A stretch of 64,000 bases of DNA from Polyangium spumosum (GCF_009649845.1 NZ_WJIE01000009.1:224685-288684); one strand, 5' to 3'. Shown: positions 30,432 to 52,199, numbered from the stretch's first letter. The notes: generated by a model from the sequence alone, not told the origin. A program made the numbers and translations.

Positions 30432-30622
30432 CGTGCTCTCCGGGGGCCTCTCTCTGCGTCGACGCTCGTGACGCGTGGGTCTCCCCGATGGCAGTGTCCA
30501 TCGACACCCACGCGTGGCGTCGCTTTTTACCCCACCCCGCTCGCGTCCGCGACTAGAATGGTTCTTTGCCTCGCGCCGTCTCCTCGCTCCGCCGCGGAGG
30601 GCGTTCGCCGCGGGAGCCGCCC

Positions 30623-38840: not shown

Positions 38841-38874
38841 CGTTTCACCTCTGCTGACTCCCTTGCCGAAGTGC

Positions 38875-39777
38875 TCATGGTTTCCCCGATCCGAGCGTCC
38901 CGCCGTCCAGACCCCCCGGGGCGAACCGCGAGGCCGTGATGGGCTTCCGATAGACGAGATCGTCGCGCAAATGGACGAGCTCGAACGCGGTCGACACGTT
39001 GAGGAGCGACTCCGAGTGGCCGAGGAGCAAGAAGCCGCCCGGGAGGAGCCGGTCGTAAAACATGTCGATCACGCGGCGCCGCGAGACGTCGTCGAAGTAG
39101 ATGAGGACGTTGCGGCAGAAGATGATGTCGACGCGGCCGACGACCGAGGCACGGACGGGATCGAGCAGGTTCAGGTGGCCGAAATGGCACCAGGCCCGGA
39201 GGTCGTCCTGCACGTGCATGCCGTCGGGCTTCTCGACGAAGTACTTGCGCTTCAAGTCGGCAGGGATCGCGCGGAACGACGAGGTGCCGTAGACGCCGCG
39301 GCGCGCGTGGGCCACGCAGCGCCGGGAGATGTCGCTGCCGAAGATGCGGAGGTCGCGGCGCCCGGACAAACCGGCCTCCCTCGCCGTGATGGCGATGGAG
39401 TAGACCTCCTCGCCCGTCGAGCAGCCAGCGCTCCAGATGGAGAGGCTCTCGCGGGAGAGCGGCGGGCGGCGGAGCATGGGGAAGAGCTCGTTGCGGAGCG
39501 CCGTGAGCTGATAGTCCTCGCGATAAAAGTAGGTCTCGTTGATCGTGACGAGATCGAGCGCCTCGTCGAGCTCGGCCCGGCCCCGGTCCGGCGAGCGGAG
39601 GAGCTGGTAATACTCGCCGAACGAGTGCAAGCCATGCACGCTGAGGCGCTCGCGCAAGCGCCGCTCGATGACGGGGCGCTGCTCGGGGCTCAGCGCGATG
39701 CCGCAATGCTGGTTGATGAGATCCCGCAAGAGGCGGAACTCGTCCGGCGCGAGGCGGATCTCATCCGGGAAGCGCAT
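38875..39777 (-). CDS. cheR: chemotaxis protein methyltransferase CheR
   Basis: ETYFYREDYQLTAL, IWSAGCSTGEEVYSIAI and FCRNVLIYF are CheR SAM-methyltransferase motifs. The start ATG at 39777..39775 shares one base with the stop of the upstream HEAT gene (TGATG). Confidence 0.9.
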   Translation of the reverse strand: MRFPDEIRLAPDEFRLLRDLINQHCGIALSPEQRPVIERRLRERLSVHGLHSFGEYYQLLRSPDRGRAELDEALDLVTINETYFYREDYQLTALRNELFPMLRRPPLSRESLSIWSAGCSTGEEVYSIAITAREAGLSGRRDLRIFGSDISRRCVAHARRGVYGTSSFRAIPADLKRKYFVEKPDGMHVQDDLRAWCHFGHLNLLDPVRASVVGRVDIIFCRNVLIYFDDVSRRRVIDMFYDRLLPGGFLLLGHSESLLNVSTAFELVHLRDDLVYRKPITASRFAPGGLDGGTLGSGKP

Positions 39778-41999
39778 CACGACCCGAAGAAGCCCCTTTC
39801 CCCGCGCCAGCGGATCGACGAGAGCGCACCCTCGAGGGTGTCGCGCACGTCCCGATCGAGCTCGTGCGAAGCGCGCTGCGCGAGGCGCTCGCGCAAGGTC
39901 GTGTTGTCGCTCGCCGCGATCGTCTCGGCCGCGAGGAGCCGGACGTCGGGCGAAGGATGGTCGAGGCAACGAAGCAGCGCCTCCCCCTCGGGGCCACTCG
40001 TCTCGAGCTTGAGCATCGCCGCCTTGACGACCGCGGCGTCGGGGTGATCGAGCGCCGCGACGAGCGCCGCTTGCCTGCCTGCCGCGCCCCAGGGCAGGCG
40101 CCCGATGGACTCGGCAGCCGCGATCGCCACGACGGCCTCGGCCTCGCGGGCGAGGGGCGCGAGGGCCTCGATGAGCGCGTCCGCGGCGCGCTCCGCGGCC
40201 TCGGGCGGGATCGTGGAGAGGGCCTCGCCGAGCGCGCGGATCGCGGTGGCCACGAGCTCGGCGTCCATCGAGCGGCCCGCGATGTCGAGGATGGTGCGCA
40301 GGCTCGGCGTCGCGTTCGTCTCGGCCGAGGCCTCGCGCCGCCGCGCCGCCGCGCCGAGGTAGCCGAGCGCGCGCGCCGCGGCGAGCTGGACCTCGCGCTC
40401 CTCGTCGGCGAGCGCGAGCGAAAGGACGTCGAGCGCCGAGTCGCCGCCGATCTCGGCGACGGCGCCGATCGCCGCACGACGCGTGCGCACGTCCTCGGCC
40501 GCAGCCGCGCGCGCGAGGAAGCCGAGGTCGAAGGGAGACGGCGGCGGGCTCGAGGGGCTACGCGTGGCCGCGAGGGCGCCGAGGATGATCGCGGCGGCGA
40601 AGGCCTCGTCGCCGGGCTCGCTGCCGGCGCGGGTGACGAGGGCGTCGCCGAGCGCGCGCGCGGCCTTCTCGTGGCGGGTCGCGAGCGAGGCGAGCGCGCC
40701 CTCGGCGGCGTGGGCGACGGGGCGGAGCGGCGAGGCGACGAGGCGCGCGGCGAGCGCGAGGTCCTCCTCGGTGCCGAGCTTCGAGAGGGCGAAGAGGGCG
40801 CTCGTGGCGACGCGGCGCTCTTCGTCGAGCACGGCCGCGCGCAGGGCCTCGAGCAGCGCCGTGGGCCGCTCGGGCGCGCCGGGCGCGAGGGCGATCGCCG
40901 CGGCGACCTCGATGAGCGCGGCGCGCACGTCGGCCGCGAGCGGCGTCACGCCTTTCTCGGGGGCGATACGCGCGACGAGGCCGGGCAGCGCGGCAGGCCC
41001 GAGGAGGAAGAGCGCACGTTCGGCCTGTTCGGTGAAGGTCTCCTCGGCGAGCGCGAGGGCGGCCGCGTCGACGACGCCGGGCGCGCGCGCGACCGCGGCG
41101 AGCAGGAGCGCCATGGCGCGGTGGTGCGGGGGGTCGGTGCCCTCGGCCATGGCGACGCGCACGAGGCGCTCGCCGAGCTCGGGGCCTTCGGCCGCGAGGG
41201 CGCCCGTGACGGCGGGCAGGAGCGGTCCGTCGGCGAGGCGCGCGAGCGCGCTGATGGCCTGCATGAAGGTGCCGCCGCGCGCCTTGTGGAGCATGCGGGC
41301 GAGCGCCGGGGCGGCCGCGGGGCTCTCGGAGGTGGCGGCGGCCGAGAGGGCCGCGCCGCGCAGGGAGGGGTGCTCGAGCAGCGGCGCGAGGCGCTCCCAG
41401 GGGATCACGGCGCCGAGGGCGTTGAGGCCTTCGAGGGCGGCGAGCTTGGCGAAGGGATCGGCGCTGTCGAGGCAGCGGAAGAGGAGGCGCTGGACCTCGA
41501 CGGGGGCGATCGGCCCGAGCTGCGCGATGGCCTCGACGGCGCCCTGGCGGACGTTCTCGTCGGCGTCGCGCAGGGCGCGCTCGAGGACGGCGAGGGCGTG
41601 GGGATCTCGCGTGAAGCCGAGGGCCTGGACGGCGAGCTTGCGGCCGTCGGCGTCGAGGCGCGCGAGCGACGCTTCGAGGGGCGCGGTGGCGGCGCTGCCG
41701 CAGCTCGCGAGGACCTCGATCGCGGCGTTGCGCAGGCCGACGTTGTCGCAGGGCTCGAAGGTCTTGACCATCGCCGCGATGAGGCTCGGCGCGGGGATGA
41801 ACGCGCGCGCCGCGTAGGTGGCCTCCTTGCGCACGCGCCAGTCGGTGTCGCCGAGCGCGCGGACGAGGAGCGGCAGCGCGTCGTAGAGCGGTAGCTCGGC
41901 GGCGAGGGCGGTGGCCTGGCGGCGCTCCTCGGCGTCCGCGGCGTCGAGGGCGGCTTCGATCAGCGCAGGCGAGACGGTGCGGGTCGAAGGGGGGTTCAC
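39777..41999 (-). CDS. HEAT-repeat (PBS-lyase-like) protein embedded in che operon (Cpc7-like)
   Basis: About 740 aa of repeated helix pairs with DxxVRxxAxxALG-type HEAT signatures (DWRVRKEATYAA, NVRQGAVEAIAQLG, DVRTRRAAIGAVAEIG, EVQLAAARALGYLG, DVRLLAAETIAAS). Start reassigned to GTG 41999, 10 nt after the cheW stop. The first 118 codons of the track ORF overlap cheW and are Ser/Arg-rich. Confidence 0.75.
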   Translation of the reverse strand: MNPPSTRTVSPALIEAALDAADAEERRQATALAAELPLYDALPLLVRALGDTDWRVRKEATYAARAFIPAPSLIAAMVKTFEPCDNVGLRNAAIEVLASCGSAATAPLEASLARLDADGRKLAVQALGFTRDPHALAVLERALRDADENVRQGAVEAIAQLGPIAPVEVQRLLFRCLDSADPFAKLAALEGLNALGAVIPWERLAPLLEHPSLRGAALSAAATSESPAAAPALARMLHKARGGTFMQAISALARLADGPLLPAVTGALAAEGPELGERLVRVAMAEGTDPPHHRAMALLLAAVARAPGVVDAAALALAEETFTEQAERALFLLGPAALPGLVARIAPEKGVTPLAADVRAALIEVAAAIALAPGAPERPTALLEALRAAVLDEERRVATSALFALSKLGTEEDLALAARLVASPLRPVAHAAEGALASLATRHEKAARALGDALVTRAGSEPGDEAFAAAIILGALAATRSPSSPPPSPFDLGFLARAAAAEDVRTRRAAIGAVAEIGGDSALDVLSLALADEEREVQLAAARALGYLGAAARRREASAETNATPSLRTILDIAGRSMDAELVATAIRALGEALSTIPPEAAERAADALIEALAPLAREAEAVVAIAAAESIGRLPWGAAGRQAALVAALDHPDAAVVKAAMLKLETSGPEGEALLRCLDHPSPDVRLLAAETIAASDNTTLRERLAQRASHELDRDVRDTLEGALSSIRWRGERGFFGS

Positions 42000-42009
42000 G
42001 GCGCGCTCC

Positions 42010-42516
42010 TCACAGGTCGTCGATCGGCGGAAGGACGTCGGCGATGTCGTCGACGAGCTCGGTGAACCGCTTCGTGTCGAGCACGAAGACGAGCAGGCCG
42101 TTGTGGTTCGTGACGCCCGAGATGCCGCGCAGATCGCGGCCGCCGCCGACGGGGGGCGTCGGCCGGATCTCGTCGGCGCCCGTGCCGAAGACCTCGGAGA
42201 CGGCGTCGACGACGAGGCCCACCATGCGCGCGCCGGCGTCGACGAGGATCCACTTCGTCGAGCGCGTCGGCGACGTCGGCGGCAGGCCGAAGCGGATGCG
42301 CAGATCGATGACGGGCACCACGTCGCCGCGGTGATCGGCCACGCCCGAGACATCGGGGGGCGTGTGCGGGAGCGGCGTGACTGGCAAGGGGTTCACGATC
42401 TCGCGCACCTGGCCGATCCCGATCGCGTAGTGGACGTCGCCGACGACGAAGCCGACGAGGCTCTTCTGGGGATCGGCGCGGTGTCTCTGGCCATAGTCGG
42501 GCATCGCTTTCGTCAT
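42010..42516 (-). CDS. cheW: chemotaxis coupling protein CheW
   Basis: The 168-aa product has the CheW fold: VGFVVGDVHYAIGIGQVREI, VPVIDLRIRFGL, GLVVDAVSEV, GLLVFVLD. Confidence 0.85.
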   Translation of the reverse strand: MTKAMPDYGQRHRADPQKSLVGFVVGDVHYAIGIGQVREIVNPLPVTPLPHTPPDVSGVADHRGDVVPVIDLRIRFGLPPTSPTRSTKWILVDAGARMVGLVVDAVSEVFGTGADEIRPTPPVGGGRDLRGISGVTNHNGLLVFVLDTKRFTELVDDIADVLPPIDDL

Positions 42517-42537
42517 CTCCGAACGGCGACCTCGGGG

Positions 42538-43107
42538 TCAGGACGCGAGCACCACCTTCAAGTCGAGGAGGATGATCACGGACGCGTCGTGGCGCAGGCC
42601 GCTGGCGTTCCTCGCCTGGGCCTTCGCGTCCGCCTGGTTCTGCGCCTGCGCGGGGCGCGCGATGCCGGCGATGTAACCGGCGACCTCGCCTCCGAGCGCG
42701 GACGCGGTCTGCTCGATGTCGCTGTCGGCGAGGCGGTAGACCTGGAGGACCTCGTCGACGAAGAGCCCGAGCGTCTCGACGCCCATCGGATCGACGAGCA
42801 GGATGCGCGCCTTGCTCGTGACGGGCCCCTCGGAGAGGCGGAGGCGGCGCCTGAGATCGAGCACCGTGACGAGCTGGCCGCGGACGCTGATGATGCCCAT
42901 GATCGACGAGGGCGCGCGCGGCACCGGGGTGATCGGGCGGAGCGTCAGGATCTCGCGGATGAGCGCGACGGGCGCGGCGTAGACGTTCTCGGCGAGGCGG
43001 AAGGCGAGGTACTTGGTGCCCTGTCCGCGGTCGCGGAGCTGCTTCTTGTGCTTCTGGCCCGCGACGACGACGGCGGAGTCGCTGCGGCGAGCGAGGTTAG
43101 AAGCCAT
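42538..43107 (-). CDS. cheW: chemotaxis coupling protein CheW (second copy)
   Basis: YLAFRLAENVYAAPVALIREI, LVTVLDLRRRL, LGLFVDEVLQV, VIILLDL. The start overlaps the cheA stop. Confidence 0.85.
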   Translation of the reverse strand: MASNLARRSDSAVVVAGQKHKKQLRDRGQGTKYLAFRLAENVYAAPVALIREILTLRPITPVPRAPSSIMGIISVRGQLVTVLDLRRRLRLSEGPVTSKARILLVDPMGVETLGLFVDEVLQVYRLADSDIEQTASALGGEVAGYIAGIARPAQAQNQADAKAQARNASGLRHDASVIILLDLKVVLAS

Positions 43108-45511
43108 GGGTGCCTCCGTGGGTCATCCGAGCGCGCTCGGAGTGGGCGAACATCTCCTCGACGAGCGCGGGCGCGTCGAGCACGAGCGCGATGCGTTGAT
43201 CCGCGAGCTGCGTCGCGCCCGCGAAGCCGGCGATGTTCTTCAGCGAGGGGCCGAAGCCCTTGATCACGACGTCCTGCTGCCCGACGAGGGAGTCGACGAC
43301 GAGGCCGAGCCTCCGGGTGCCGACGGCCGTGACGACCACGAACTTGCGCTTGGACCGCGGCGCGAGCGCGTTCTTCATGGCGTTGCTCACCGTCGACGTC
43401 TGCGCGGGCCGGTAGGGGAAGGCCGGCGAGTAGCCCTGCTGCCGCAGAGGCTCGCCGCGGAGCGACGAGCGCGCCCCCGGCGCGATCTGGCTGAGCTGCG
43501 GGGCGTCGAGGCCGAAGCCGTCGGTGCCGCTCACCTCGCTCGTGTCGGCGAGCCCGAAGAGCCGCGCGAGGTAGCAGAGCTGGAGCGTGTTGCCGCGCAG
43601 CGTGACGGCGTCGCGCCCGTCGATCACGCGCACCGCGGAGAGGTCGAGCCACACGGCCTCCTGCACGTTGGCGAGCGGGATCGCGAACTGCTGATCGCTG
43701 ACCTTCACGATGAGCGCCTTCAGGATCGCGAGCGTGATCGGCAGCGTCACCGTGAACTTGGTGCCGATGCTGATCTCGCTCTGCACGTCGATGACGCCGC
43801 CGAGCTTCGAGATGTTCGTCTTCACGACGTCCATGCCGACGCCGCGCCCGCTGATCTCGCTCACCGACGTCTTCGTGGACAGGCCGGGCACGAAGATGAG
43901 GTTCAACACCTCGCGGCGGCTCATCGTCCGCGCGTCCTCCGGCCCCACGAGGCCCATCCGGATCGCCTTCTCGAGCAGGCGCTCCATCTCGATGCCCTTG
44001 CCGTCGTCCTCGATCTCGATGACGACGTGGTTGCCCTTCTGGAAGGCGTTCAGCGCGATCGTCCCGATCGCGGGCTTGCCCATGGCCTCGCGCGCGTCGC
44101 GATCCTCGATGCCGTGATCGATCGCGTTGCGCATCATGTGCATGAGCGGATCGCTGAGCTCCTCGACGATGAGCTTGTCGACGTTGGTCTCCGCGCCCGT
44201 GATGACGAGGTTCACCTGCTTGCCCGCCTGGCGGCTGATCTGGCGCGCGACGCGGGCGAGCTTGTCGAAGACCTGCCCGAGCGGCACCATGCGCACCTCG
44301 AGGATGCCGTCGCGCAGGCGCTTGACGTTGTGCCCGAAGTCGCGCTGGAGCCTCCGGAGGTTGTTCTTCACCTCGTGGTTCGCCTGCGCGTCGCGCATCT
44401 TCTCGAGCAGCCGATCGAGCTCCGTCCGCACGATCGACAGCTCGCCGACGTAGTTCATCAGGACGTCGAGCTTCTGGATGTCGACGCGCACCGTCTGCGC
44501 GACGCTCTTGATCGTGCCGAGCTCCTGCGCCTTCGGCGGGATGCTCGCGCTCGTGTCGAGGTGCGGCGCGGGGAAGGGGTGCGGCGCCGTCATGTCGAGC
44601 GGCGCGCTGCCCATCGGCGGCATCGGGCTCGGGGGCTCGCTCGGCGCGACCGGCGGCGGCGAGGGCGTGGGCGTGGGGATGTTCGTGTGCGAGAACGTCG
44701 ACGCCGACGAGGCCGAGGCCGTCGACGAGGTGGGCGGGGGCGGGGGCATGGCCGCATGCGAGGGCCCTCCGCCCTGCCGCGGCAGCTCCTCGACCTCCAC
44801 GCCGAGGTGGTTGAGCGCGTTTCGCAGCGTCGTCGAAGGCGCGCGCGAGCCCATCAGGATCTCGAGCGTGATCGAGTCGATGTCGTCGGTGTCGCTCGCG
44901 GGCAGGTACGTGATGATGTCGCCGTGCGGCTTCGCGGTCGCCTTGAGCTCGTCGAGCCCTTGATCGATCGTCGCGAGCTGGAACCGCACGCGCAGCCGGT
45001 AGAGCGTGTTGCCCTGCGCGATGTTCGTCTTGAGCTTGTGCTCCTCGAACTCCGTGAGCACCGCGAGCAGGTTCGGGTCGATGATGGGCCCGCCGCCGCC
45101 GCCGCCCGCGCCTGCGCCCGCGCCTCGATCGAGCTGCGCGAGCAGCTTGTCGAGCTCGGGGATCGGCTGATCGCGGCTCTCCTTCTCGGCCTGGAGCAGC
45201 TTGCCGTAGAGCTGCACCGAGGCGAAGAGCAGGTCGAGCACGGGGGCCGTGACGTCGACCTTGCCGAGGCGCAGATCGTCGAGCAGCTCCTCGAGCTTGT
45301 GCGAGAGGCTCGACATCCGCGTCGCGCCGAAGAGGCCCGCCAGGCCCTTCAGCGTGTGCACCGCGCGGAAGACGTCGTTGATGAGGTCCGGGTCGACGTG
45401 GCCGGATTTCTGGGCCTCGTCGAGCGCGAGCAGATCTCGCCCGAGCCCCTCGACGATCTCCTGCGCCTCGGAGAAGAACTCCTCGCGCGCGCGTTCGCTC
45501 TCGCTCGTCAA
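43097..45511 (-). CDS. cheA: chemotaxis histidine kinase CheA
   Basis: HPt: FRAVHTLKGLAGLFG. Ala/Pro/Ser-rich linker. Dimerisation and HATPase regions (DHGIEDRD, GRGVGMDVV). C-terminal CheW-like domain. The ATG overlaps the cheY stop (ATGA). Confidence 0.9.
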   Translation of the reverse strand: MTSESERAREEFFSEAQEIVEGLGRDLLALDEAQKSGHVDPDLINDVFRAVHTLKGLAGLFGATRMSSLSHKLEELLDDLRLGKVDVTAPVLDLLFASVQLYGKLLQAEKESRDQPIPELDKLLAQLDRGAGAGAGGGGGGPIIDPNLLAVLTEFEEHKLKTNIAQGNTLYRLRVRFQLATIDQGLDELKATAKPHGDIITYLPASDTDDIDSITLEILMGSRAPSTTLRNALNHLGVEVEELPRQGGGPSHAAMPPPPPTSSTASASSASTFSHTNIPTPTPSPPPVAPSEPPSPMPPMGSAPLDMTAPHPFPAPHLDTSASIPPKAQELGTIKSVAQTVRVDIQKLDVLMNYVGELSIVRTELDRLLEKMRDAQANHEVKNNLRRLQRDFGHNVKRLRDGILEVRMVPLGQVFDKLARVARQISRQAGKQVNLVITGAETNVDKLIVEELSDPLMHMMRNAIDHGIEDRDAREAMGKPAIGTIALNAFQKGNHVVIEIEDDGKGIEMERLLEKAIRMGLVGPEDARTMSRREVLNLIFVPGLSTKTSVSEISGRGVGMDVVKTNISKLGGVIDVQSEISIGTKFTVTLPITLAILKALIVKVSDQQFAIPLANVQEAVWLDLSAVRVIDGRDAVTLRGNTLQLCYLARLFGLADTSEVSGTDGFGLDAPQLSQIAPGARSSLRGEPLRQQGYSPAFPYRPAQTSTVSNAMKNALAPRSKRKFVVVTAVGTRRLGLVVDSLVGQQDVVIKGFGPSLKNIAGFAGATQLADQRIALVLDAPALVEEMFAHSERARMTHGGTHGF

Positions 45512-45954
45512 CGCGACCCCTCGCTGGTCTCGGCCGGGGGAAGGGAGCTGCGCGCTTGCAGGATCGTCGTGATGGCGCGCTGCAGCGCCTCCACCGTGAA
45601 GGGCTTCGCGAGGAACGCGTCGGCGCCGAGCGCGAGGCCGCGCGCCCGATCCTTCTCGGAGGACTGCGTCGAGATGATGATCGTGGCGACCTTGCGGTGA
45701 CGCTCGCTGTCGCGCATGAACCGCAGGAGCTCGAGCCCGTTGATGTCCGGCATGTTGATGTCGGTGATCACGAGGTCGTAGTGCCCGCGCGGCAGGAGGC
45801 GCAACGCGTCGAACCCGCTGGCAGCCTCGACGACCTCCACCTCGCCTTGCGCGTCGTCCGGGCTCGTCGCGAAGAGCCCCGGCGTTTCCTCGAGCGCCGC
45901 GCGGATGAACGCCCGGAACGCAGAGGAGTCCTCGACGACCAGGATACGAGCCAT
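45508..45954 (-). CDS. cheY: CheY-like single-domain response regulator
   Basis: MARILVVEDSSAFRAFI...DLVITDINMPDINGLELL...LAKPF contains the receiver D-D-D-T-K residues. It is the first gene of the che operon. Confidence 0.85.
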   Translation of the reverse strand: MARILVVEDSSAFRAFIRAALEETPGLFATSPDDAQGEVEVVEAASGFDALRLLPRGHYDLVITDINMPDINGLELLRFMRDSERHRKVATIIISTQSSEKDRARGLALGADAFLAKPFTVEALQRAITTILQARSSLPPAETSEGSR

Positions 45955-46281
45955 GTCGGGAGGTTAGCGGAAACGCCTCTCGATCAGGAGGTTTTTGGGC
46001 GACCTCCCCGGCCCCGGGGGGCCGCTGCCGTGTCGTGAAGGGGCAGGCGCCGATTTCTTGCCCGTATTTGCGCCTTCGCCGGGGGGCCGCGCGGGGGAAA
46101 CAGGCCTTTCACGCGCCCCGTGGGCCGGTGTGGCGCTCGTGGTCACGGCGACGCCCATGCGGCCGCGAATTGACAGGCCCGCCGTGGTCCTGCCCTAATG
46201 CGTTCCGTGAACGACAGAAACAAGGCCGCGCTCGGCGCGGGTATCTCTTCCCATGCCCGGCCCAAGTGTGGGCTCCGCCTG

Positions 46282-47301
46282 ATGCTCTTCTCGCTGCTCG
46301 CGCTCATGCTCGTCGCGTGCGGGGGCGGCTTGAACGTCCGGCTGATCAACTCCGCGCAGAAGAAGCCCAACAACGTCTGGGTCTTCTTCACGGTCGACGC
46401 GGGCAAGGACAAGCCCGTCGGCGGCCTCGTCGCCGAGGACTTCAAGATCTACGAGGACGGCGAGCTCGTCTCGGCCTTCGAGAGCAAGCAGACCATCCAG
46501 AACCCGGAGGTCGCGGCCGTCATGTACACGATGTTGCTCGTGGACATGAGCGGCTCGGTCACCGAGTCCGGGCAGGCGGACGCGCTCGTCGACGCGGCCA
46601 AGGCCTTCGCGGATCGTGTCGGCAAGACGCAGAAGGTCGGCGTGTACGGCTTCGACGGCTCCGAGAAGATCTTCTCGGTCGTGCCCTTCACCGAGGCGGC
46701 AGGATCGGTCGAGGGGGGCCTCGAGGGGCTGCGCAGCTACAAGCCGAAGGACCCGTCGACGAACCTGCACGGCGCCGTCGTCGAGGGCCTCGCGACGCTC
46801 AAGAAGGAGCTCGACAAGGACAAGCGCCCGCTCAAGTTCGGCTCCCTCGTCGTCTTCTCGGACGGCACGGATCGCGCCGCGCGCGTGACCCGCGACGAGA
46901 TGAAGGACGCGATGGACAAGGAGGAGTACGAGAACTACGAGATCTACGCGATCGGCGTCGGCGCCGAGATCGGCAAGGCGAAGCTCGACGAGATCGGGCG
47001 CGACGGGACCGAGCTCGCGACGGATCAGGCGAAGGTCAAGGAGGCCTTCGACAGGATGGCCGCGCGCATCGAGTCGCACATGAAGCGCTTTTATCTGCTC
47101 TCGTACTGCACGCCGGCCCGCAAGGGTGAGCACGAGGTCACCATCGAGGCCATCAGCAAGAAGGACCCCGAGGGCTCGGGCTCCGTCGAGTACAAGTTCA
47201 ACGCCGACGGCTTCGGGCCTCCGCCGGACTGCAACCCCAACGCGCCGCCGGCCTTCGAGCTGAAGGAGCCGGCGCCGAAGCCCGCCGAGGCCGCCAAGTA
47301 A
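46282..47301 (+). CDS. von Willebrand factor type A (VWA) domain lipoprotein
   Basis: Lipobox LMLVACGG. MIDAS motif LLVDMSGSV. VWA fold elements (VGVYGFDGSE, VVFSDGTD). ATG at 46282 is preferred over 46198. Confidence 0.75.
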   Translation: MLFSLLALMLVACGGGLNVRLINSAQKKPNNVWVFFTVDAGKDKPVGGLVAEDFKIYEDGELVSAFESKQTIQNPEVAAVMYTMLLVDMSGSVTESGQADALVDAAKAFADRVGKTQKVGVYGFDGSEKIFSVVPFTEAAGSVEGGLEGLRSYKPKDPSTNLHGAVVEGLATLKKELDKDKRPLKFGSLVVFSDGTDRAARVTRDEMKDAMDKEEYENYEIYAIGVGAEIGKAKLDEIGRDGTELATDQAKVKEAFDRMAARIESHMKRFYLLSYCTPARKGEHEVTIEAISKKDPEGSGSVEYKFNADGFGPPPDCNPNAPPAFELKEPAPKPAEAAK

Positions 47302-47327: not shown

Positions 47328-47368
47328 GGCCCGCGCGCATCCTGTATGCTCGCGGGCCTCGGCTTTTT
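47328..47368 (+). terminator. rho-independent terminator after VWA lipoprotein gene
   Basis: Perfect 8-bp GC stem: GGCCCGCG 47328-47335 pairs with CGCGGGCC 47351-47358, with a 15-nt loop. It is followed by TCGGCTTTTTCG. Confidence 0.7.
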
Positions 47369-47383
47369 CGAGGGGAACCACGC

Positions 47384-47776
47384 ATGGCGGTTTCGAAGGT
47401 GCTGCTGGTGGACGACGAGCCGCATATCCGGCGGATCGGAGAGCTCAGCCTGAAGGGCGTCGGCAAGTGGAAGGTCGTGCTCGCGTCCTCGGGGCACGAA
47501 GCGCTCGAGGCCGCGGCGCGCGAAGCGCCGGACGTGATCCTGCTCGACGTGATGATGCCGGGCATGGACGGGCAGGAGACACTCGTCGAGCTCCGCACGC
47601 GCGAGGAAACAGCCGCGATCCCGGTCATCTTCATGACCGCGAAGGTGCAGAAGCACGAGGTCGACAGGTACCGCGAGCTCGGCGCCGCGGGCGTCATCCC
47701 GAAGCCCTTCGACCCGATGTCGCTGCCCGGACAGGTCCTCGACATCCTCGCCTCGTACGTGGGCGCACGCTCTTGA
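47384..47776 (+). CDS. single-domain response regulator (receiver only)
   Basis: VLLVDDEPHIRRI...DVILLDVMMPGMDGQETL...IFMTAK...IPKPF. No output domain. Confidence 0.85.
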   Translation: MAVSKVLLVDDEPHIRRIGELSLKGVGKWKVVLASSGHEALEAAAREAPDVILLDVMMPGMDGQETLVELRTREETAAIPVIFMTAKVQKHEVDRYRELGAAGVIPKPFDPMSLPGQVLDILASYVGARS

Positions 47777-47813
47777 TCGTGGCTCGCCACGTGCAAGGGA
47801 GAGGGGCGGAGAT

Positions 47814-49124
47814 TTGATGAAAGCAGCCCCTCCCCCGAGCGACGAGATCGAGCGCCTCGTGGCGCTCAGCGAAGCGGCGATCCTCGACACGCCCCCCGAG
47901 CCTGCCTTCGATGATCTCACGCGCCTCGCGGCCGCGATCTGCCGCACGCCGATCGCGCTGGTCTCGCTCGTCGATCGCGAGCGCCAGTGGTTCAAGTCGA
48001 AGGTCGGGCTCGACGCGAGCGAGACGCCGCGCGAGGTGGCCTTCTGCGCGCACGCGATCCTCGGCGAGCAGCTCTTCCTCGTCCCCGACGCGCACGAGGA
48101 CGCGAGATTTGCAGACAACCCGCTCGTGACCGGCGGGCCTCACGTGCGCTTCTACGCGGGCGCGCCGCTCGCGACCGCGGACGGTCACAACGTCGGCACC
48201 CTCTGCGTCATCGACCACGGGCCGCGGCAGCTCGACGACGCGCAGCGGGCCGCGCTCACGGCCCTCGCGCGCCAGGTGGCCGCGCAGATCGACCTCCGCC
48301 GCGCGAACGGGCGGCTCGCGAAGCTCAACGGCGAGCTCGTGGCGCGGGCGCGCGAGGCGCAGGCGCTGGCCGAGGAGCGCAAGGCCGTCGAGCGGGTCAA
48401 GGACGAGTTCGTCTCGACCGTCTCGCACGAGCTCCGGACGCCGCTCACCTCGATCCGCGGCGCGCTCGGCCTGCTCGAAGGCGGCGTGCTCGGCCCCCTG
48501 CCCGACGGGGCGATGGAGCTCGTCCAGATCGCCCGCACGAACACCGACCGGCTCGTGCGGCTCGTGAACGACATCCTCGATCTCGAGAAGATCGTGGCGG
48601 GCAAGCTCGAGCTTCACCCGAAGCGCGTCGACGTGCGGCGGCTCGTCTCGGGCCTCGTCGACAGCCTCGGCCCCGTGGCCTCGGAGGCCAGGGTCGAGCT
48701 CTTCGTGGACGTGCGGGGCGAGATCGAGGTCGTGGTGGATGAGGACCGCATCGCTCAGGTGCTCACGAACCTGATGTCGAATGCCCTCAAGTTCTCGCCC
48801 CCCGAGGCGCGGGTCGAGCTCGGCGTGGAGGCGAAGGCCGACGGGCGCGTGTGCTTCGCGGTCCGGGACCGCGGCCCCGGGATCGCGGAGGCGGACCTCG
48901 GGCGGCTCTTCAAAAGGTTCGAACAGCTCGAGGGCGAGGGCCGGCGCGAGCAGCGCGGCACGGGCCTCGGGCTCGCGATCTCGAAGGCGATCGTGGAGCA
49001 ACACGGCGGGGCGATCGGCGTCGCCTCGAAGCTCGGGCAAGGCAGCACGTTCTGGTTCGAGTTGCCCTCGCCAAATGGAGAGGCGCGTCGAAATCCCGGG
49101 GCCCCTGCCGTCGGTTTCGCTTAA
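47814..49124 (+). CDS. GAF sensor histidine kinase
   Basis: N-terminal GAF (ICRTPIALVSLVDRERQWFKSKVGLD...FYAGAPL). HisKA: FVSTVSHELRTPLTSIRGALGLL. HATPase: GTGLGLAISKAIVEQHGGAIGV. Confidence 0.85.
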   Translation: MMKAAPPPSDEIERLVALSEAAILDTPPEPAFDDLTRLAAAICRTPIALVSLVDRERQWFKSKVGLDASETPREVAFCAHAILGEQLFLVPDAHEDARFADNPLVTGGPHVRFYAGAPLATADGHNVGTLCVIDHGPRQLDDAQRAALTALARQVAAQIDLRRANGRLAKLNGELVARAREAQALAEERKAVERVKDEFVSTVSHELRTPLTSIRGALGLLEGGVLGPLPDGAMELVQIARTNTDRLVRLVNDILDLEKIVAGKLELHPKRVDVRRLVSGLVDSLGPVASEARVELFVDVRGEIEVVVDEDRIAQVLTNLMSNALKFSPPEARVELGVEAKADGRVCFAVRDRGPGIAEADLGRLFKRFEQLEGEGRREQRGTGLGLAISKAIVEQHGGAIGVASKLGQGSTFWFELPSPNGEARRNPGAPAVGFA

Positions 49125-49139
49125 AATCGAGAGGTTTCA

Positions 49140-49492
49140 TGGCGCAGACGAAGGACGACGAGATCCGAGCGGCGCTCCTGGAGTTACGCAAGGAGTACCT
49201 CGCGGAGCTGCCGGAGCTCTTGCGAGAGCTCGCCGAGATCGTGGCCGCAGCAAAAGAGGGGTCCAGGCAGGACGCGATGCGCGCCGCCGTGTCGAGGGCG
49301 CACGCGCTGCGCGGGACCGCGGGTTCGTACCGCTTCCAGGAGATCAGCGACGCCGCGGGCCTCGTCGAGGACGGGCTGCTCGGCATCCAGGGCGGCTGGC
49401 TCTCGGCGGAGCAAGCGTGGCCCGAGATCGAGCGCGCGCTCGCGGCGGCGCGGGCGGCGTGTGATCGAGCGGTCGTCGATCTTCTCTCGTGA
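49140..49492 (+). CDS. histidine phosphotransfer (HPt) domain protein
   Basis: The 117-aa helical protein has RAHALRGTAGSYRF, matching the HPt HxxKG consensus around the phospho-His. ATG at 49140 lies 16 nt after the HK stop. Confidence 0.65.
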
Positions 49493-49495
49493 CGC

Positions 49496-50893
49496 TCAAG
49501 CCCAGCCGGCGCGCTCGACGATGCCCTCGATCGTGTCGACGAGGCGCCGCAGATCGATCGGCTTGGCCACGAACTCGCGCACGCCGAGGACGGCGAACTT
49601 CCAGCGCTCCTGCGGGCCGACGCGGCCGCTGAGGACGACGACGCGGGCGTGATCGCCGCGCGGCAGGGCGCGCAGGTGCGAGAGCGTGTCCACGCCGTCG
49701 AGGTCGGGCATGTCGAGGTCGAGCAGGACGAGATCGGGGGGCTCTTCGCGCGCGGCCTCGAGCGCGGCCTGGCCCGAGCGCGCGACGCGGATCCGCATCG
49801 ATCGGCCCTTCATGGCGAGCTCGGCGGCCTTGGCGGCGAACTTGCCGAACGCGGGGTCGTCGTCGACCGTGAGCACGCGGATCGATCGCGTGGCGCTCTC
49901 GGCGGGTTGCCTGACGCTCGCGGGCGGCGGCGCGCTCGGCGACGCCTGGGCCTTGGGTGAGCCGGCGAGGACGAGGTCCCGCGCGAAGGCGCCGCAGCTC
50001 GTGTATCGATCGGCGGGGTTTTTCGCGAGGGCGCGCGAGAGCACGGCGTCGAAGGGCGCGAGCTCGGGGCGCACCGACGAGGCGAGGGGCACGGGCGCGC
50101 TGAAGTGCGCGTGCAGCAGCCGCACGAGGTCACGCTGGAGGTACGGCGTGCGCCCGGTGAGCAGCTCGAACGCGACACATCCGAGCGCGTAGACGTCGCT
50201 CCACGGGCCCACGGGTATCCCCTCGCCGGCGAGCCCTGCTTGCTCCGGCGCCATGTAGACCGGCGTGCCCTCGATCGTCTCGGGCCTCGACGCGGAGTGC
50301 TGCTGCGCGAGGCCGAAGTCGATGAGCACGGGCCTGCCGGTGTCCTCCTCGATGACGATGTTGCCCGGCTTGACGTCGCGATGGACGATGCCCCGGCCGT
50401 GCGCGGCGTCGAGGCCGTCGGCGATGCGCCCGAGGATGGTGATCGCGCGGTGCTGGGGCAAGGCGCTCTGGCGCTGCCGGTACTCGTCGAGGATCGCCTC
50501 GAGCGAGCGGCCCTCGACGTACTCCATGGCGAAGAAGTACGAGGAGCCGTGTCGGCCGAACGCGTAGACCTGCACGACGTGTTGATCACGCAGCGTCGCG
50601 AGCGCCTTCGCTTCCTGCTGGAGCCGCTGCTCGGCGAGCGCGTCGTCCCACGTCGGGGCGATGAGCTTCAGGGCGACCGTGCGATCGAGCCAGGTGTCGC
50701 GCGCGCGGTAGACGACCCCCATGCCGCCGCGCCCGAGCTCCTTTTCGACGCGATAGGTCCCGGCCACGATCATGCCCGGCTCGGGCGTGATCGAGGGGCG
50801 CGCGGGGGGATCGATCACGTTGCCGGATTCGTCGATCGACGAGGTGTCGCTCAAGGCTTCGCCGGATCTGTCAGGCGACGAAGGTGTGCTCAT
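49496..50893 (-). CDS. Ser/Thr protein kinase fused to C-terminal receiver (REC) domain
   Basis: Kinase motifs: GRGGMGVVYRA, VALKLI, HRDVKPGNIVI, DFGLAQ, GTPVYMAPE. C-terminal REC: IRVLTVDDDP...DLVLLDLDMPDLDGVDTL...FVAKP. ATG at 50893 is preferred over the ORF-track start at 51010. The 3' end is 3 nt from the HPt stop (convergent). Confidence 0.85.
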   Translation of the reverse strand: MSTPSSPDRSGEALSDTSSIDESGNVIDPPARPSITPEPGMIVAGTYRVEKELGRGGMGVVYRARDTWLDRTVALKLIAPTWDDALAEQRLQQEAKALATLRDQHVVQVYAFGRHGSSYFFAMEYVEGRSLEAILDEYRQRQSALPQHRAITILGRIADGLDAAHGRGIVHRDVKPGNIVIEEDTGRPVLIDFGLAQQHSASRPETIEGTPVYMAPEQAGLAGEGIPVGPWSDVYALGCVAFELLTGRTPYLQRDLVRLLHAHFSAPVPLASSVRPELAPFDAVLSRALAKNPADRYTSCGAFARDLVLAGSPKAQASPSAPPPASVRQPAESATRSIRVLTVDDDPAFGKFAAKAAELAMKGRSMRIRVARSGQAALEAAREEPPDLVLLDLDMPDLDGVDTLSHLRALPRGDHARVVVLSGRVGPQERWKFAVLGVREFVAKPIDLRRLVDTIEGIVERAGWA

Positions 50894-50939
50894 GATCGCT
50901 TGCCTGCGGAGGCCGAGAAGTGCCGGTCCATTTTCATTT

Positions 50940-52199
50940 TTAGGTCGGTAGCTTCGGCGTCGCGAGGGAAAACGTTCGTTCGGCGCGTCGCGCGCCTGCG
51001 AGCTGACCACAGGCGCCGCCGACGTCGCGGCCGCGGGGCCTGCGGACGAGCGTCGTCACGCCGTGCGACGAGAGCCGCGCGACGAAGGCGTCGAGCCGCT
51101 CCTGCGTGGGCGGGCGCAGCGAGGGATCGGGCCCGGGGTTGCACGGGATCACGTTCACGCGGCAGCGGATCGGGCGGACGTAGGCCGCGAGCAGGTCGGC
51201 GTCCTCGGGCGCGTCGTTCCAGCGGTCGAAGAGCACGTACTCGAAGAGCACACGGCGGCCGGGCGGGAGCGCGCCTACGATCGCGTCGCGCAGCGCCGCG
51301 AGCGGGAAACGCGTGTTGATGGGCATGATCGTTCGGCGCCGCTCGTCGTCCGGCGCGTTGAGGCTCACGGCGAGCTCGGCGCGCGTGCCGGCGAAAAACG
51401 CGGGCAGCTTGTCGGCGACGCCCACGGTGCTCACGGTGACGCGTGAGGGCGCGAAGCCGAAGGCGCGATCGTCGGTGAGCAGGCGGAGCGCGCGCAGCAC
51501 CTCGGGCAGGTTGTCGAAGGGCTCGCCCATGCCCATGAAGACGAGGTTCGAGAGGGGCGGCGCGCCGCCGGCCTCGTGAAAGATCGCGCGGGCGAGGCGG
51601 ACCTGGTCGATGATCTCGCCCGCGGCGAGCTGGCGCTCGAGCCCGAGCCGGCCCGTCTCGCAGAACGCGCAGGCGCGCGCGCAGCCGACCTGGCTCGAGA
51701 TGCAGAGCGTGGTGCGGCCGGGGCCGGGGATGAGGACGGACTCGACGAGGGCGCCGTCGGCCCGCGCGCGAAATAGCAGCCGGATCGTGCCGTCCTCCGC
51801 GGGCGCGCGCTCGTGCAGCGTGAGGGCCGGCGCGGGATCGAGGGCGTCGAGCGCCTCGTGGGCCCAGGCGCCGATGCCGAGGTCGGCGAAGGTCGAGCGG
51901 CCCCAGGGGATCTCTGCGGCGTCGTCGCGGGAGAAGGCGTGCCGCACGATCCGGGCGGCGGCCGAGCGAGCGGCCGAAGGTGATCCGCCGCGCGCGACCA
52001 GGCGCTCGGTGAGTGAACCTGCGTCGTGCGAGGCGAGCAGCGTGTCGCCGCGGGCGGCGCGCGAGACGAGCGGGATCCCCCCGCGCTTGTCGAGAACGTC
52101 CACGGCCGTTCTGTTACTACGGCGAGGGCCGGCGCGGCAGCCCGCGTGTCCCAGCCGGATCGACCAGGCTGCCCGAGCCTCCCTCCGCAGCTTATCCAC
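50940..52199 (-). CDS. rlmN: 23S rRNA/tRNA adenine C2-methyltransferase RlmN (radical SAM)
   Basis: CISSQVGCARACAFCETG (CxxxCxxC radical-SAM cluster), GMGEP, NVIPCNP and the C-terminal ACGQLAG are RlmN/Cfr signatures. The real start is probably internal (N-terminus Arg-rich). Confidence 0.85.
   Translation of the reverse strand: MDKLRREARAAWSIRLGHAGCRAGPRRSNRTAVDVLDKRGGIPLVSRAARGDTLLASHDAGSLTERLVARGGSPSAARSAAARIVRHAFSRDDAAEIPWGRSTFADLGIGAWAHEALDALDPAPALTLHERAPAEDGTIRLLFRARADGALVESVLIPGPGRTTLCISSQVGCARACAFCETGRLGLERQLAAGEIIDQVRLARAIFHEAGGAPPLSNLVFMGMGEPFDNLPEVLRALRLLTDDRAFGFAPSRVTVSTVGVADKLPAFFAGTRAELAVSLNAPDDERRRTIMPINTRFPLAALRDAIVGALPPGRRVLFEYVLFDRWNDAPEDADLLAAYVRPIRCRVNVIPCNPGPDPSLRPPTQERLDAFVARLSSHGVTTLVRRPRGRDVGGACGQLAGARRAERTFSLATPKLPT

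What the first reader, a model, noticed from the sequence alone, without database searches (positions are those of the whole stretch)
47384..51010. Compact His-Asp phosphorelay (REC - GAF-HK - HPt) converging on a Ser/Thr kinase carrying a C-terminal receiver
Three co-directional genes encode a receiver-only response regulator, a GAF sensor histidine kinase and a stand-alone HPt protein, spaced 38 and 16 nt apart. The HPt stop is only 3 nt from the stop of a convergent gene encoding a Hanks-type Ser/Thr kinase with a complete C-terminal REC domain (DD...D...K). The parts list matches a four-step relay (HK to REC to HPt to REC) whose terminal receiver is fused to a eukaryote-like kinase. This would be a direct wiring of two-component signalling into Ser/Thr phosphorylation. 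The near-zero convergent spacing also suggests transcriptional interference or antisense overlap between the two units.
Basis: partly seen in the sequence, partly recalled or inferred. Interest (0 to 1): 0.65.

Follow-up and report, generated by a model that had tools for sequence, protein, structure and literature searches.

The report
Phosphorelay ending in receiver-fused Ser/Thr kinase
Four neighbouring genes of the soil bacterium Polyangium spumosum encode a sensor histidine kinase, a small receiver protein, a phosphate-shuttle (HPt) protein and a eukaryote-like Ser/Thr kinase with its own receiver domain; about half of 79 related kinases sit beside an HPt domain, so this is probably a real but untested relay that switches a Ser/Thr kinase.

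Summary
The genes are REC (47384-47776, +), GAF-HisKA-HATPase kinase (47817-49124, +), HPt (49139-49492, +) and a convergent Hanks kinase with a C-terminal REC (49496-50893, -; 465 aa, not the 504-aa ORF). Every domain passes Pfam's gathering score, and all catalytic and phospho-acceptor residues are present. The window is Polyangium spumosum, where the genes carry only generic annotation.

The gene order is kept in 12 other Polyangium genomes. I examined 79 loci of the kinase-REC family from Polyangiales and Sandaracinaceae. An HPt domain lies within 3 kb of the kinase-REC gene in 40 of them. It occurs as a free protein, as REC-HPt, as HK-HPt, or as the tail of an HK-REC-REC-HPt kinase. This recurring, shuffled linkage is good genomic evidence that HPt donates phosphate to the kinase's receiver.

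The four-step order HK→REC→HPt→REC-kinase is inferred, not shown. The effect on kinase activity and the substrates are unknown. The idea of transcriptional interference has no support beyond geometry: tail-to-tail spacing ranges from -52 to +346 nt among relatives.

This is a new variant of a known kind. The closest analogues are Sln1-Ypd1-Ssk1→Ssk2, fungal Rim15 and HptB→HsbR. Interest is moderate.

The parts
47328..47369 (+). Terminator-like hairpin (GGCCCGCGCGCAUC...GUAUGCUCGCGGGCC) plus T tract. It lies between the VWA lipoprotein gene (stop at 47301) and the REC start codon, and marks the upstream edge of the relay unit.
   Evidence: Fold energy -36.3 kcal/mol, z = -2.1. The stem is conserved and the loop is variable in five other Polyangium species. 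Its role is not settled: it may be a leaky terminator or a 5' leader.
47384..47776 (+). Stand-alone receiver protein (130 aa). Key residues: D10/D11, phospho-acceptor D55, T85, K107.
   Evidence: Pfam Response_reg 92.4 bits. Residues located. Identical to NCBI WP_153822730 'response regulator' of P. spumosum. Orthologues are fused to HPt in L024 and L025.
47817..49124 (+). Cytoplasmic GAF sensor histidine kinase (435 aa). Key residues: H-box His204 (SHELRTP), N box at 318, G1 at 351, G2 at 381. It has no receiver, no PAS domain and no membrane segment.
   Evidence: Pfam GAF, HisKA and HATPase_c. Motifs and hydropathy. It aligns with the hybrid orthologue of L027 in two blocks of 68% and 65% identity, with the PAS domain and both receivers missing.
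49139..49492 (+). Stand-alone HPt protein (117 aa). The phospho-acceptor is His55 in AHALRGTAGSY.
   Evidence: Pfam Hpt 36.5 bits against a cut-off of 24.6. His55, G59, T60, G62 and S63 are invariant in 30 homologues. The AlphaFold model is a four-helix bundle with pLDDT 90.7; its best solved match is CheA P1, with TM 0.69/0.76. A PDB profile search aligns the His with that of CheA P1.
49496..50893 (-). Hanks-type Ser/Thr kinase with a C-terminal receiver (465 aa). Kinase residues: G54-G59 loop, K76, E94, H171-R172-D173, N178, D192-F193-G194, T210, E217, D233, R296. Receiver residues: D344-D346, phospho-acceptor D392, S422, F441, K444.
   Evidence: Pfam Pkinase 158 bits and Response_reg 71.8 bits. 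Residues. The catalytic residues are kept in 81 of 81 aligned family members, D392 in 81 of 82, S/T422 in 76 of 82 and K444 in 78 of 82 (positions there are numbered +1).

Best explanation
This is a multi-step His-Asp phosphorelay whose terminal response regulator has a Hanks-type Ser/Thr kinase as its output domain.

Proposed path (inferred):
1. The soluble GAF kinase senses an unknown cytoplasmic ligand and autophosphorylates on His204.
2. It passes the phosphoryl group to Asp55 of the stand-alone receiver.
3. The receiver passes it to His55 of the HPt protein.
4. HPt passes it to Asp392 of the receiver fused to the kinase.

Phosphorylation of that receiver then changes kinase activity. The most likely mechanism is receiver-driven dimerisation that allows trans-autophosphorylation of the activation loop of this RD kinase, or relief of an inhibitory contact. 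A His-Asp signal is thereby converted into Ser/Thr phosphorylation of substrates that remain unknown.

What is shown: the four parts are present, every catalytic and acceptor residue is intact, and the kinase-REC gene is linked to HPt genes across genera.

What is inferred: the direction and order of transfer, the sign of the effect on the kinase, and the substrates.
For: (1) All domains exceed Pfam's gathering scores, and the His/Asp acceptor and catalytic residues are present.

(2) The block REC, GAF-HK, HPt, then convergent kinase-REC, recurs in 12 other Polyangium genomes. The core 'kinase-REC tail-to-tail with HPt then REC' is also found in Byssovorax (L012, L018), and kinase-REC tail-to-tail with HPt in Chondromyces apiculatus (L019).

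(3) Family-wide, 40 of 79 kinase-REC loci have an HPt domain within 3 kb: 30 by my profile (29 of them within 500 bp) and 10 more as tails of adjacent hybrid kinases. All 29 stand-alone or REC-fused HPt ORFs so flagged were confirmed by Pfam, and the three kinase-fused ones. The density is about 65-fold higher than in the distal flanks.

(4) Domain fusions tie the parts together:
- REC-HPt in L024, L025 and L063.
- GAF-HK-HPt with a separate REC in L057 and L072.
- REC-HK-HPt in L032.
- PAS-HK-REC-REC-HPt directly upstream of kinase-REC in L046, L049, L050, L052, L055, L074 and L078.

(5) Ten loci hold only HPt next to kinase-REC, with no histidine kinase nearby: L019, L020, L023, L029, L031, L033, L037, L040, L041 and L062. 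This points to HPt as the immediate partner of the kinase's receiver.

(6) HPt linkage is scattered over most clades of a neighbour-joining tree of the family, so it is old or recurrent.

(7) In this window the HK has no receiver of its own. The stand-alone REC is therefore the only locally encoded way to get phosphate from HisKA to HPt.
Against: No biochemical or expression data exist, and no tool here tests phosphotransfer.

- In the sister Polyangium lineages (L007, L008, L021, L027) the orthologous HK carries two fused receivers yet keeps the stand-alone REC. That REC may therefore have another role, such as a sink, a branch or an output.
- 23 of 79 family loci have no two-component gene within 3 kb. 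Some loci pair kinase-REC with REC alone (L013, L061).
- Myxobacterial genomes encode many orphan kinases (two more in this window) that could feed HPt instead.
- The neighbourhood survey covers one protein family picked by two peptide patterns, so it says nothing about kinase-REC fusions elsewhere.
Confidence: 0.6

Rival explanations
1. There are two circuits that merely share a locus. The GAF-HK and the stand-alone REC form an ordinary two-component pair whose single-domain regulator acts by protein-protein contact. HPt and kinase-REC form a separate module fed by hybrid kinases encoded elsewhere.
For: Ten loci have HPt plus kinase-REC with no kinase nearby, so upstream donors can be remote. 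In sister lineages the HK is a hybrid that would not need the stand-alone REC. REC directly followed by HK is the classic paired arrangement.
Against: The window's HPt has no other locally encoded phosphodonor, since the HK lacks a receiver. The REC orthologue is fused to HPt in L024 and L025, and sits between kinase-REC and a GAF-HK-HPt fusion in L057 and L072. These fusions tie REC, HK and HPt into one pathway. The 14-nt HK-HPt spacing suggests one transcript.
Confidence: 0.2
2. The coupling runs the other way or is phosphorylation-independent. The Hanks kinase phosphorylates relay components (REC, HK or HPt) on Ser/Thr to gate the relay, or its receiver serves only as a phosphate sink or a dimerisation module.
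For: From general knowledge, Hanks kinases phosphorylate response regulators in several bacteria (PrkC-WalR, Stk1-CovR, PknH-DosR). Receivers acting as sinks are also known. Loci with kinase-REC plus REC only (L013, L061) fit a kinase-substrate pair.
Against: The acceptor Asp, the Ser/Thr, the Lys and the aromatic switch residue of the fused receiver are kept almost without exception in 82 family members. This argues for real phosphorylation-dependent switching. The consistent partner is HPt, not REC. A pure sink does not explain why the kinase catalytic residues are conserved in the same polypeptide.
Confidence: 0.12
3. The tight convergent junction is itself regulatory. Overlapping 3' ends of the two transcripts give antisense or collision-based mutual repression of the relay operon and the kinase gene.
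For: The stops are 3 nt apart here. The genes overlap by 11 nt in four Polyangium species, by 6 nt in Byssovorax L012 and by 52 nt in Chondromyces L019. No terminator-like hairpin lies between them, so the transcripts must overlap in these cases.
Against: Spacing is +16, +40, +124/125 and +343/346 nt in other convergent relatives. The two genes are co-directional in many clades. The junction is therefore not a conserved feature of the system. There are no transcript data.
Confidence: 0.1
4. The adjacency is fortuitous, arising in a genome dense with signalling genes, and there is no functional link.
For: The window holds many other signalling genes: a Che cluster, two orphan HKs and another Ser/Thr kinase.
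Against: The linkage is conserved across genera, in several gene orders and as domain fusions. HPt is about 65-fold enriched next to kinase-REC genes.
Confidence: 0.03

Closest known systems
Yeast Sln1-Ypd1-Ssk1 relay controlling the MAPKKK Ssk2/Ssk22 (HOG pathway)
   Same: A His-Asp-His-Asp relay through a free HPt protein, whose last receiver governs a Ser/Thr kinase (general knowledge; the Ssk1/Ypd1 description is in the abstract of PMC6863705, listed, and in PMC8510515).
   Different: In yeast the receiver (Ssk1) and the kinase (Ssk2) are separate proteins, and the first receiver is fused to the histidine kinase. Here the receiver is fused to the kinase, the first receiver is free, and the system is bacterial.
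Fungal Rim15 (Greatwall-family kinase with a C-terminal receiver, counted as a response regulator)
   Same: The same order of domains: a Ser/Thr kinase followed by a C-terminal receiver. In Basidiomycota and Mucoromycota the receiver keeps the acceptor Asp, in a cell that has an HPt (Ypd1) (PMC8510515).
   Different: It is an AGC/Greatwall kinase of eukaryotes. [quoted passage not shown] There is no gene linkage to HPt. Common descent with the Polyangia family was not tested.
Pseudomonas aeruginosa HptB to HsbR (PA3346) to HsbA (PA3347)
   Same: A bacterial free HPt receives phosphate from hybrid kinases and passes it to a response regulator whose output changes Ser/Thr phosphorylation of a target protein (PMC7467158).
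   Different: The output is a PP2C phosphatase (plus, from general knowledge, an anti-sigma-type Ser kinase of the HATPase fold), not a Hanks-type kinase. The target is an anti-sigma antagonist.
Bacillus subtilis sporulation phosphorelay (KinA to Spo0F to Spo0B to Spo0A)
   Same: A non-hybrid kinase, a stand-alone single-domain receiver, a separate phosphotransferase and a terminal response regulator: four separate proteins, as here (general knowledge).
   Different: Spo0B is not a four-helix HPt of PF01627. The output is a DNA-binding domain. The genes are scattered.
Rice CHARK and cyanobacterial HstK-type dual kinases
   Same: These are other natural fusions of Hanks-type kinase domains with two-component modules. 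CHARK is CHASE, Ser/Thr kinase, then receiver, and acts in a His-Asp relay (PMC7814049). HstK is Ser/Thr kinase, GAF, then histidine kinase (PMC2176072).
   Different: CHARK is a membrane receptor at the top of the pathway. HstK has a transmitter, not a receiver. Neither is a terminal acceptor beside its own HPt gene.

Membership tests
HPt (histidine phosphotransfer) domain, PF01627 | Profile match above the curated threshold | tested here: met
   36.5 bits against a cut-off of 24.6, E 6e-9. All 30 listed homologues carry PF01627.
HPt (histidine phosphotransfer) domain, PF01627 | Solvent-exposed phospho-acceptor His in the motif H-x-(L/I)-(K/R)-G on helix 2 of a four-helix bundle | tested here: met
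   His55 in AHALRGTAGSY is invariant in 30 homologues and in 29 HPt ORFs next to kinase-REC genes. It aligns with the CheA P1 His. The model is a helical bundle with pLDDT 90.7. The best fold matches are CheA P1 and other HPt proteins, but Foldseek E-values are weak (0.09 and above), as is usual for small bundles.
HPt (histidine phosphotransfer) domain, PF01627 | Reversible phosphotransfer between receiver Asp residues | not testable with these tools
   This needs purified proteins.
Receiver (REC) domains, PF00072 (both copies) | Profile match plus the acidic pair, the acceptor Asp, a Thr/Ser and a Lys | tested here: met
   92.4 and 71.8 bits. Stand-alone REC: D10/D11, D55, T85, K107. Fused REC: D344-346, D392, S422, F441, K444. 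The fused set is conserved in 76-81 of 82 family members.
HisKA-type sensor histidine kinase | H box, N box, G1 box and G2 box | tested here: met
   HisKA 71 bits and HATPase_c 107 bits. SHELRTP (His204), NLMSNALKF, DRGPGI and GTGLGL. Autokinase activity was not testable.
Hanks-type (eukaryote-like) Ser/Thr protein kinase | Gly-rich loop, VAIK Lys, alpha-C Glu, HRD, catalytic Asn, DFG, APE, and the subdomain IX Asp and XI Arg | tested here: met
   Pkinase 158 bits. GRGGMG, K76, E94, HRD 171-173, N178, DFG 192-194, APE 215-217, D233 and R296. These are invariant in 81 of 81 aligned relatives. Activity and Ser/Thr versus Tyr preference were not testable.
Multi-step (His-Asp-His-Asp) phosphorelay | All four transfer sites encoded, and genetic linkage conserved | tested here: met
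   All four genes lie within 3.5 kb. The linkage is conserved in 12 Polyangium genomes and, in shuffled or fused form, across Polyangiales and Sandaracinaceae.
Multi-step (His-Asp-His-Asp) phosphorelay | Demonstrated sequential phosphotransfer in the stated order | not testable with these tools
   Inferred only. The hybrid HK in sister lineages shows that the route can differ.
Response regulator with enzymatic output | Output activity depends on the phosphorylation state of the receiver | not testable with these tools
   The only evidence is indirect: joint conservation of the receiver switch residues and the kinase catalytic residues.

The most novel reading that the evidence does not exclude
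Kinase-REC proteins with a dedicated HPt partner form a family-wide output module of Polyangia. They would be a class of 'kinase-output response regulators' through which His-Asp relays directly switch Hanks-type Ser/Thr kinases. Such relays may start from free GAF kinases or from unorthodox HK-REC-REC-HPt kinases. This would be the bacterial, single-polypeptide counterpart of Ypd1-Ssk1-Ssk2 and of the unstudied Rim15 receiver. It would also be a main junction between the two largest signalling systems of myxobacteria.
Probability: 0.5. Interest if true: 0.6.

Novelty: new variant of a known kind. Interest (0 to 1): 0.5.

Why it matters
Myxobacteria of the Polyangia combine very large sets of two-component proteins and Hanks-type kinases. 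How the two networks talk to each other is mostly known from scattered cases of kinases phosphorylating response regulators.

A compact four-gene system in which a His-Asp relay ends on the receiver of a Ser/Thr kinase would give a clean, biochemically tractable example of the opposite direction of coupling. The proteins are soluble, with no membrane segments. The partner sets recur across genera, which gives natural variants for specificity studies: free, REC-fused and HK-fused HPt.

It would also offer a bacterial model for how a C-terminal receiver controls a eukaryote-type kinase. That question is still open for fungal Rim15 (PMC8510515).

The individual parts and the relay logic are textbook, the genes are already generically annotated, and nothing here is experimentally shown.

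Tried and rejected
(1) My first DNA reference for HPt (49140-49492) was one base out of frame. Searches used the correct protein.

(2) My first start for the kinase (50896) added one residue. Positions printed are numbered +1 relative to the 465-aa protein. The exact-sequence look-up of that protein failed for this reason.

(3) An exact look-up of the HPt protein in the contig index found nothing. The source was identified instead through the 100% identical P. spumosum protein.

(4) My family-specific HPt profile missed the HPt tails of unorthodox kinases. These were recovered only by Pfam scans of the kinase C-termini.

(5) An attempt at an unbiased 'nearest neighbour' gene call by GC3 picked wrong-strand ORFs in these 70% G+C genomes and was dropped.

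(6) Orphan kinase-REC paralogues (L013-L017, L019, L022) showed no recurrent non-two-component neighbour that could hint at a substrate.

(7) Eight literature searches found no characterised bacterial Hanks kinase-REC relay. The Galperin response-regulator censuses and the Perez et al. 2008 myxobacterial kinome paper are not held. I cannot exclude that the architecture is listed there; from memory, rare REC-kinase fusions are.

(8) A link to the adjacent Che cluster was rejected. The Che, VWA and RlmN-like neighbours are conserved only within Polyangium, not in Byssovorax or Chondromyces loci.

(9) The promoter and terminator scan found nothing useful inside the unit.
Full report
**What is in the window**

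The region is 70% G+C coding DNA. Four genes are present.

- A 130-aa receiver at 47384-47776 (+).
- A 435-aa soluble kinase at 47817-49124 (+) with GAF, HisKA and HATPase_c domains. The ATG at 47817 is the start used by NCBI; TTG 47814 is the alternative.
- A 117-aa HPt protein at 49139-49492 (+).
- On the other strand, a 465-aa protein at 49496-50893 with a Hanks-type kinase domain followed by a receiver.

All domains pass Pfam's gathering scores. The weakest is HPt, at 36.5 bits against a cut-off of 24.6. Homologues of 465-472 aa and the alignment show that the gene begins at ATG 50893.

The gaps are 40, 14 and 3 nt. The 3-nt gap lies between the two convergent stop codons.

The functional residues are all there.

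- Receiver: D10/D11, D55, T85, K107.
- Kinase H box: His204 in SHELRTP, with N, G1 and G2 boxes.
- HPt: His55 in AHALRGTAGSY.
- Hanks kinase: Gly loop, K76, E94, HRD 171-173, N178, DFG 192-194, APE, D233, R296.
- Fused receiver: D344-346, D392, S422, F441, K444.

None of the four proteins has a membrane-like segment.

The HPt assignment was checked at three further levels.

- His55 and the following G-T-x-G-S are invariant in 30 homologues.
- A PDB profile search aligns that His with the phospho-His of CheA P1 domains.
- An AlphaFold model (pLDDT 90.7) is a helical bundle. Its best solved matches are CheA P1 (TM 0.69/0.76) and other HPt proteins, though with weak E-values, as expected for a small bundle.

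**Source and state of annotation**

The HPt, receiver and kinase proteins are identical to consecutive GenBank proteins MRG95921-MRG95923 of Polyangium spumosum. They are annotated only as 'response regulator', 'GAF domain-containing sensor histidine kinase' and 'Hpt domain-containing protein'. The nearest named relatives of the kinase-REC protein are 'protein kinase domain-containing protein' entries of other Polyangium species. The parts are therefore in the databases, but the system is not described there.

**Conservation in the genus**

The following order is found in P. fumosum, P. jinanense, Polyangium sp. 15x6, 6x1 and y55x31, and several Polyangium MAGs:

- RlmN-like gene, then kinase-REC;
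- facing them on the other strand, VWA lipoprotein, REC, HK and HPt, so that HPt and kinase-REC meet tail to tail;
- beyond the VWA gene, a divergent CheY-CheA cluster.

In a more distant Polyangium group the orthologous kinase is about 920 aa with the architecture GAF-PAS-HisKA-HATPase-REC-REC. This group is L007, L008, L021 and L027, whose kinase-REC proteins are 68-72% identical to the window's. The window kinase aligns to the L027 protein in two blocks of 68% and 65% identity, with the PAS domain and both receivers missing. The stand-alone receiver is kept in both groups. Which state is ancestral is not resolved, because both forms occur in outgroups.

**The family view, which carries most of the weight**

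All 120 listed best database hits of the kinase-REC protein have the same Pkinase plus Response_reg architecture. A pattern scan of one genome per species returned 80 loci, 79 of them with a complete kinase-REC gene. They come from Polyangium, Byssovorax, Chondromyces, Minicystis, other Polyangiaceae and Sandaracinaceae, often with several paralogues per genome.

- An HPt domain lies within 3 kb of the kinase-REC gene in 40 of 79 loci. My profile found 30, of which 29 are within 500 bp.
- Ten more are C-terminal HPt domains of adjacent hybrid kinases that my profile had missed: L044, L046, L049, L050, L052, L055, L064, L070, L074 and L078. L071 is borderline.
- All 29 flagged stand-alone or REC-fused HPt ORFs match PF01627, and the three kinase-fused ones matched it.
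- A histidine kinase lies within 3 kb in 39 loci, and some two-component part in 56. Twenty-three loci have none.
- Within these loci, HPt domains are about 65 times denser within 1 kb of kinase-REC genes than beyond 3 kb: 28 in 155 kb against 1 in 539 kb.

The arrangements differ, which is what makes the linkage informative.

- Free HPt convergent with kinase-REC (Polyangium; Byssovorax L012 and L018; Chondromyces L019).
- Free HPt directly upstream on the same strand (L029, L031, L033, L037, L040, L041, L062).
- REC-HPt fusion (L024, L025, L063).
- Kinase-REC, then REC, then a GAF-HK-HPt fusion (L057, L072).
- REC-HK-HPt (L032).
- Unorthodox PAS-HK-REC-REC-HPt immediately upstream (seven loci).

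In a neighbour-joining tree of the family, these HPt-linked members are spread over most clades.

The receiver and kinase residues are jointly conserved. The catalytic residues are kept in 81 of 81 aligned members, the acceptor Asp in 81 of 82, Ser/Thr in 76 of 82 and Lys in 78 of 82.

**How it most likely works**

HPt domains do one thing: they shuttle phosphoryl groups between receiver aspartates. A protein family that keeps an intact receiver, and that is found next to HPt in half of its loci in every possible gene and domain order, is therefore best read as the acceptor of HPt~P.

In this window the kinase lacks its own receiver. The only locally encoded path to HPt is through the stand-alone receiver. 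That gives the route HK His204 → REC Asp55 → HPt His55 → kinase-REC Asp392.

Two kinds of fusion support these four parts acting in one pathway. The REC orthologue is fused to HPt in L024 and L025. In L057 and L072 the GAF kinase is fused to HPt, with a free REC next to it.

The output step is inference from general knowledge. Receiver phosphorylation commonly drives dimerisation through the alpha4-beta5-alpha5 face. RD-type Hanks kinases such as PknB are activated by dimerisation and activation-loop phosphorylation. This kinase is an RD kinase with a conserved Thr/Ser (T210) before APE. Activation by receiver-driven dimerisation is therefore my preferred guess, but inhibition relieved by phosphorylation is equally possible.

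The ligand of the GAF domain and the substrates are unknown. Orphan paralogues gave no hint of a recurrent substrate gene.

I put 0.6 on the full four-step route and somewhat more on the HPt to kinase-REC step alone.

**Rivals**

- Two circuits sharing a locus, with HK-REC as a plain pair and HPt plus kinase-REC fed from elsewhere. This is favoured by the ten HPt-plus-kinase-REC loci without any kinase, and by the hybrid HK of sister lineages. It is disfavoured by the REC-HPt and HK-HPt fusions and by the 14-nt HK-HPt spacing. Confidence 0.2.
- Reverse or phosphorylation-independent coupling, in which the kinase phosphorylates relay parts or the receiver is a sink or dimeriser. This is possible as an added layer, but it does not explain the near-perfect conservation of the receiver switch residues. 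Confidence 0.12.
- Regulation through the convergent junction. The genes are 3 nt apart here. They overlap by 11 nt in four Polyangium species, by 6 nt in L012 and by 52 nt in L019, and no terminator-like site is present. However, spacing is +16 to +346 nt in other convergent relatives, and the genes are co-directional elsewhere. The junction is therefore not a conserved part of the system. Confidence 0.1, as an add-on only.
- Chance adjacency is practically excluded.

**Comparison with what is known**

The logic is that of a classical multi-step phosphorelay. With four separate proteins it resembles the Bacillus Spo0 relay.

In ending on a regulator of Ser/Thr phosphorylation it resembles two systems. 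One is yeast Sln1-Ypd1-Ssk1→Ssk2, where receiver and kinase are separate proteins. The other is P. aeruginosa HptB→HsbR, where the output is a PP2C phosphatase and partner switch (PMC7467158).

The domain order, kinase then C-terminal receiver, is that of fungal Rim15. Rim15 is counted among fungal response regulators, and the role of its receiver is reported as unstudied (PMC8510515). Rice CHARK (PMC7814049) and cyanobacterial HstK kinases (PMC2176072) are other fusions of Hanks kinases with two-component modules, but at other positions in the pathway.

I found no paper describing a bacterial Hanks kinase-REC as the end point of an HPt relay. The searchable library lacks the main response-regulator censuses and the myxobacterial kinome paper, so prior listing of the architecture cannot be excluded.

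**Verdict**

It is a new variant of a known kind, not a new principle, and everything beyond the parts list is inference. Interest is 0.5. It is a well-defined, soluble, four-protein system. It would let the junction between His-Asp and Ser/Thr signalling in myxobacteria be tested directly. A specialist would not find it very surprising.

Noticed in passing
window 37728-45954 (- strand): A chemosensory cluster sits next to the relay: CheY (45508-45954), CheA (43097-45511), two CheW genes (42538-43107 and 42010-42516), a large HEAT-repeat protein (about 39777-42000), CheR (38875-39969) and CheB (37728-38840). No MCP gene lies inside it. From memory, the HEAT-repeat partner recalls the M. xanthus Che7 system. 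The block is syntenic with the relay only within Polyangium.
   Followed up: partly
window 47328-47369: A strong hairpin plus T tract lies between the VWA gene and the REC start codon. Its stem is conserved and its loop variable in five other Polyangium species. Only 14 nt separate the T tract from the ATG, so there is no room for a promoter downstream of it. It may be a leaky terminator or a 5' leader of the relay operon.
   Followed up: partly
L007, L008, L021, L027 versus window 47817-49124: The orthologous kinase in a sister Polyangium group is GAF-PAS-HK-REC-REC (about 920 aa). The window's version lacks the PAS domain and both receivers, with clean domain-level boundaries.
   Followed up: yes
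window 49490-49498 and loci L002-L012, L018, L019, L021, L027: The tail-to-tail distance between HPt and kinase-REC varies from a 52-nt overlap (Chondromyces apiculatus) through -11, -6, 0, +3, +6, +16, +40 and +124/125 to +343/346 nt.
   Followed up: partly
window 50940-52199 (- strand): An RlmN/Cfr-like radical SAM gene ends 46 nt upstream of the kinase-REC start on the same strand. It scores 259 bits, below the RlmN equivalog cut-off of 290, and its longest ORF has an N-terminal extension of about 120 aa. The adjacency is kept within Polyangium only.
   Followed up: no
window 46198-47301 (+ strand): A VWA-domain protein (its N-terminus looks lipoprotein-like, not tested) lies directly upstream of the relay genes. 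It is conserved there in all Polyangium loci but not beyond. Its relation to the relay is unknown.
   Followed up: no
homologues P0034, P0038, P0062, P0105, P0120 (alignment A1): Several kinase-REC paralogues carry an N-terminal CxxC...CxxC motif that looks like a zinc ribbon. It is absent from the window protein, whose N-terminus is a Ser/Thr/Pro-rich, probably disordered stretch.
   Followed up: no
L059 9282-11987 and L071 11186-12034: Two hybrid kinases next to kinase-REC genes in Sandaracinaceae end in a SpoIIAA-like (STAS) domain. STAS is the usual substrate type of partner-switching Ser kinases.
   Followed up: no
window 6135-9869 (-), 20176-22335 (+), 30566-32011 (+), 24250-29835 (-): Other genes in the window: a 1244-aa Ser/Thr kinase with an AAA_16 (STAND-like) ATPase domain, two orphan PAS-type histidine kinases that could feed any relay (one also has a GAF domain), and a 1861-aa bacterial alpha-2-macroglobulin.
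   Followed up: no
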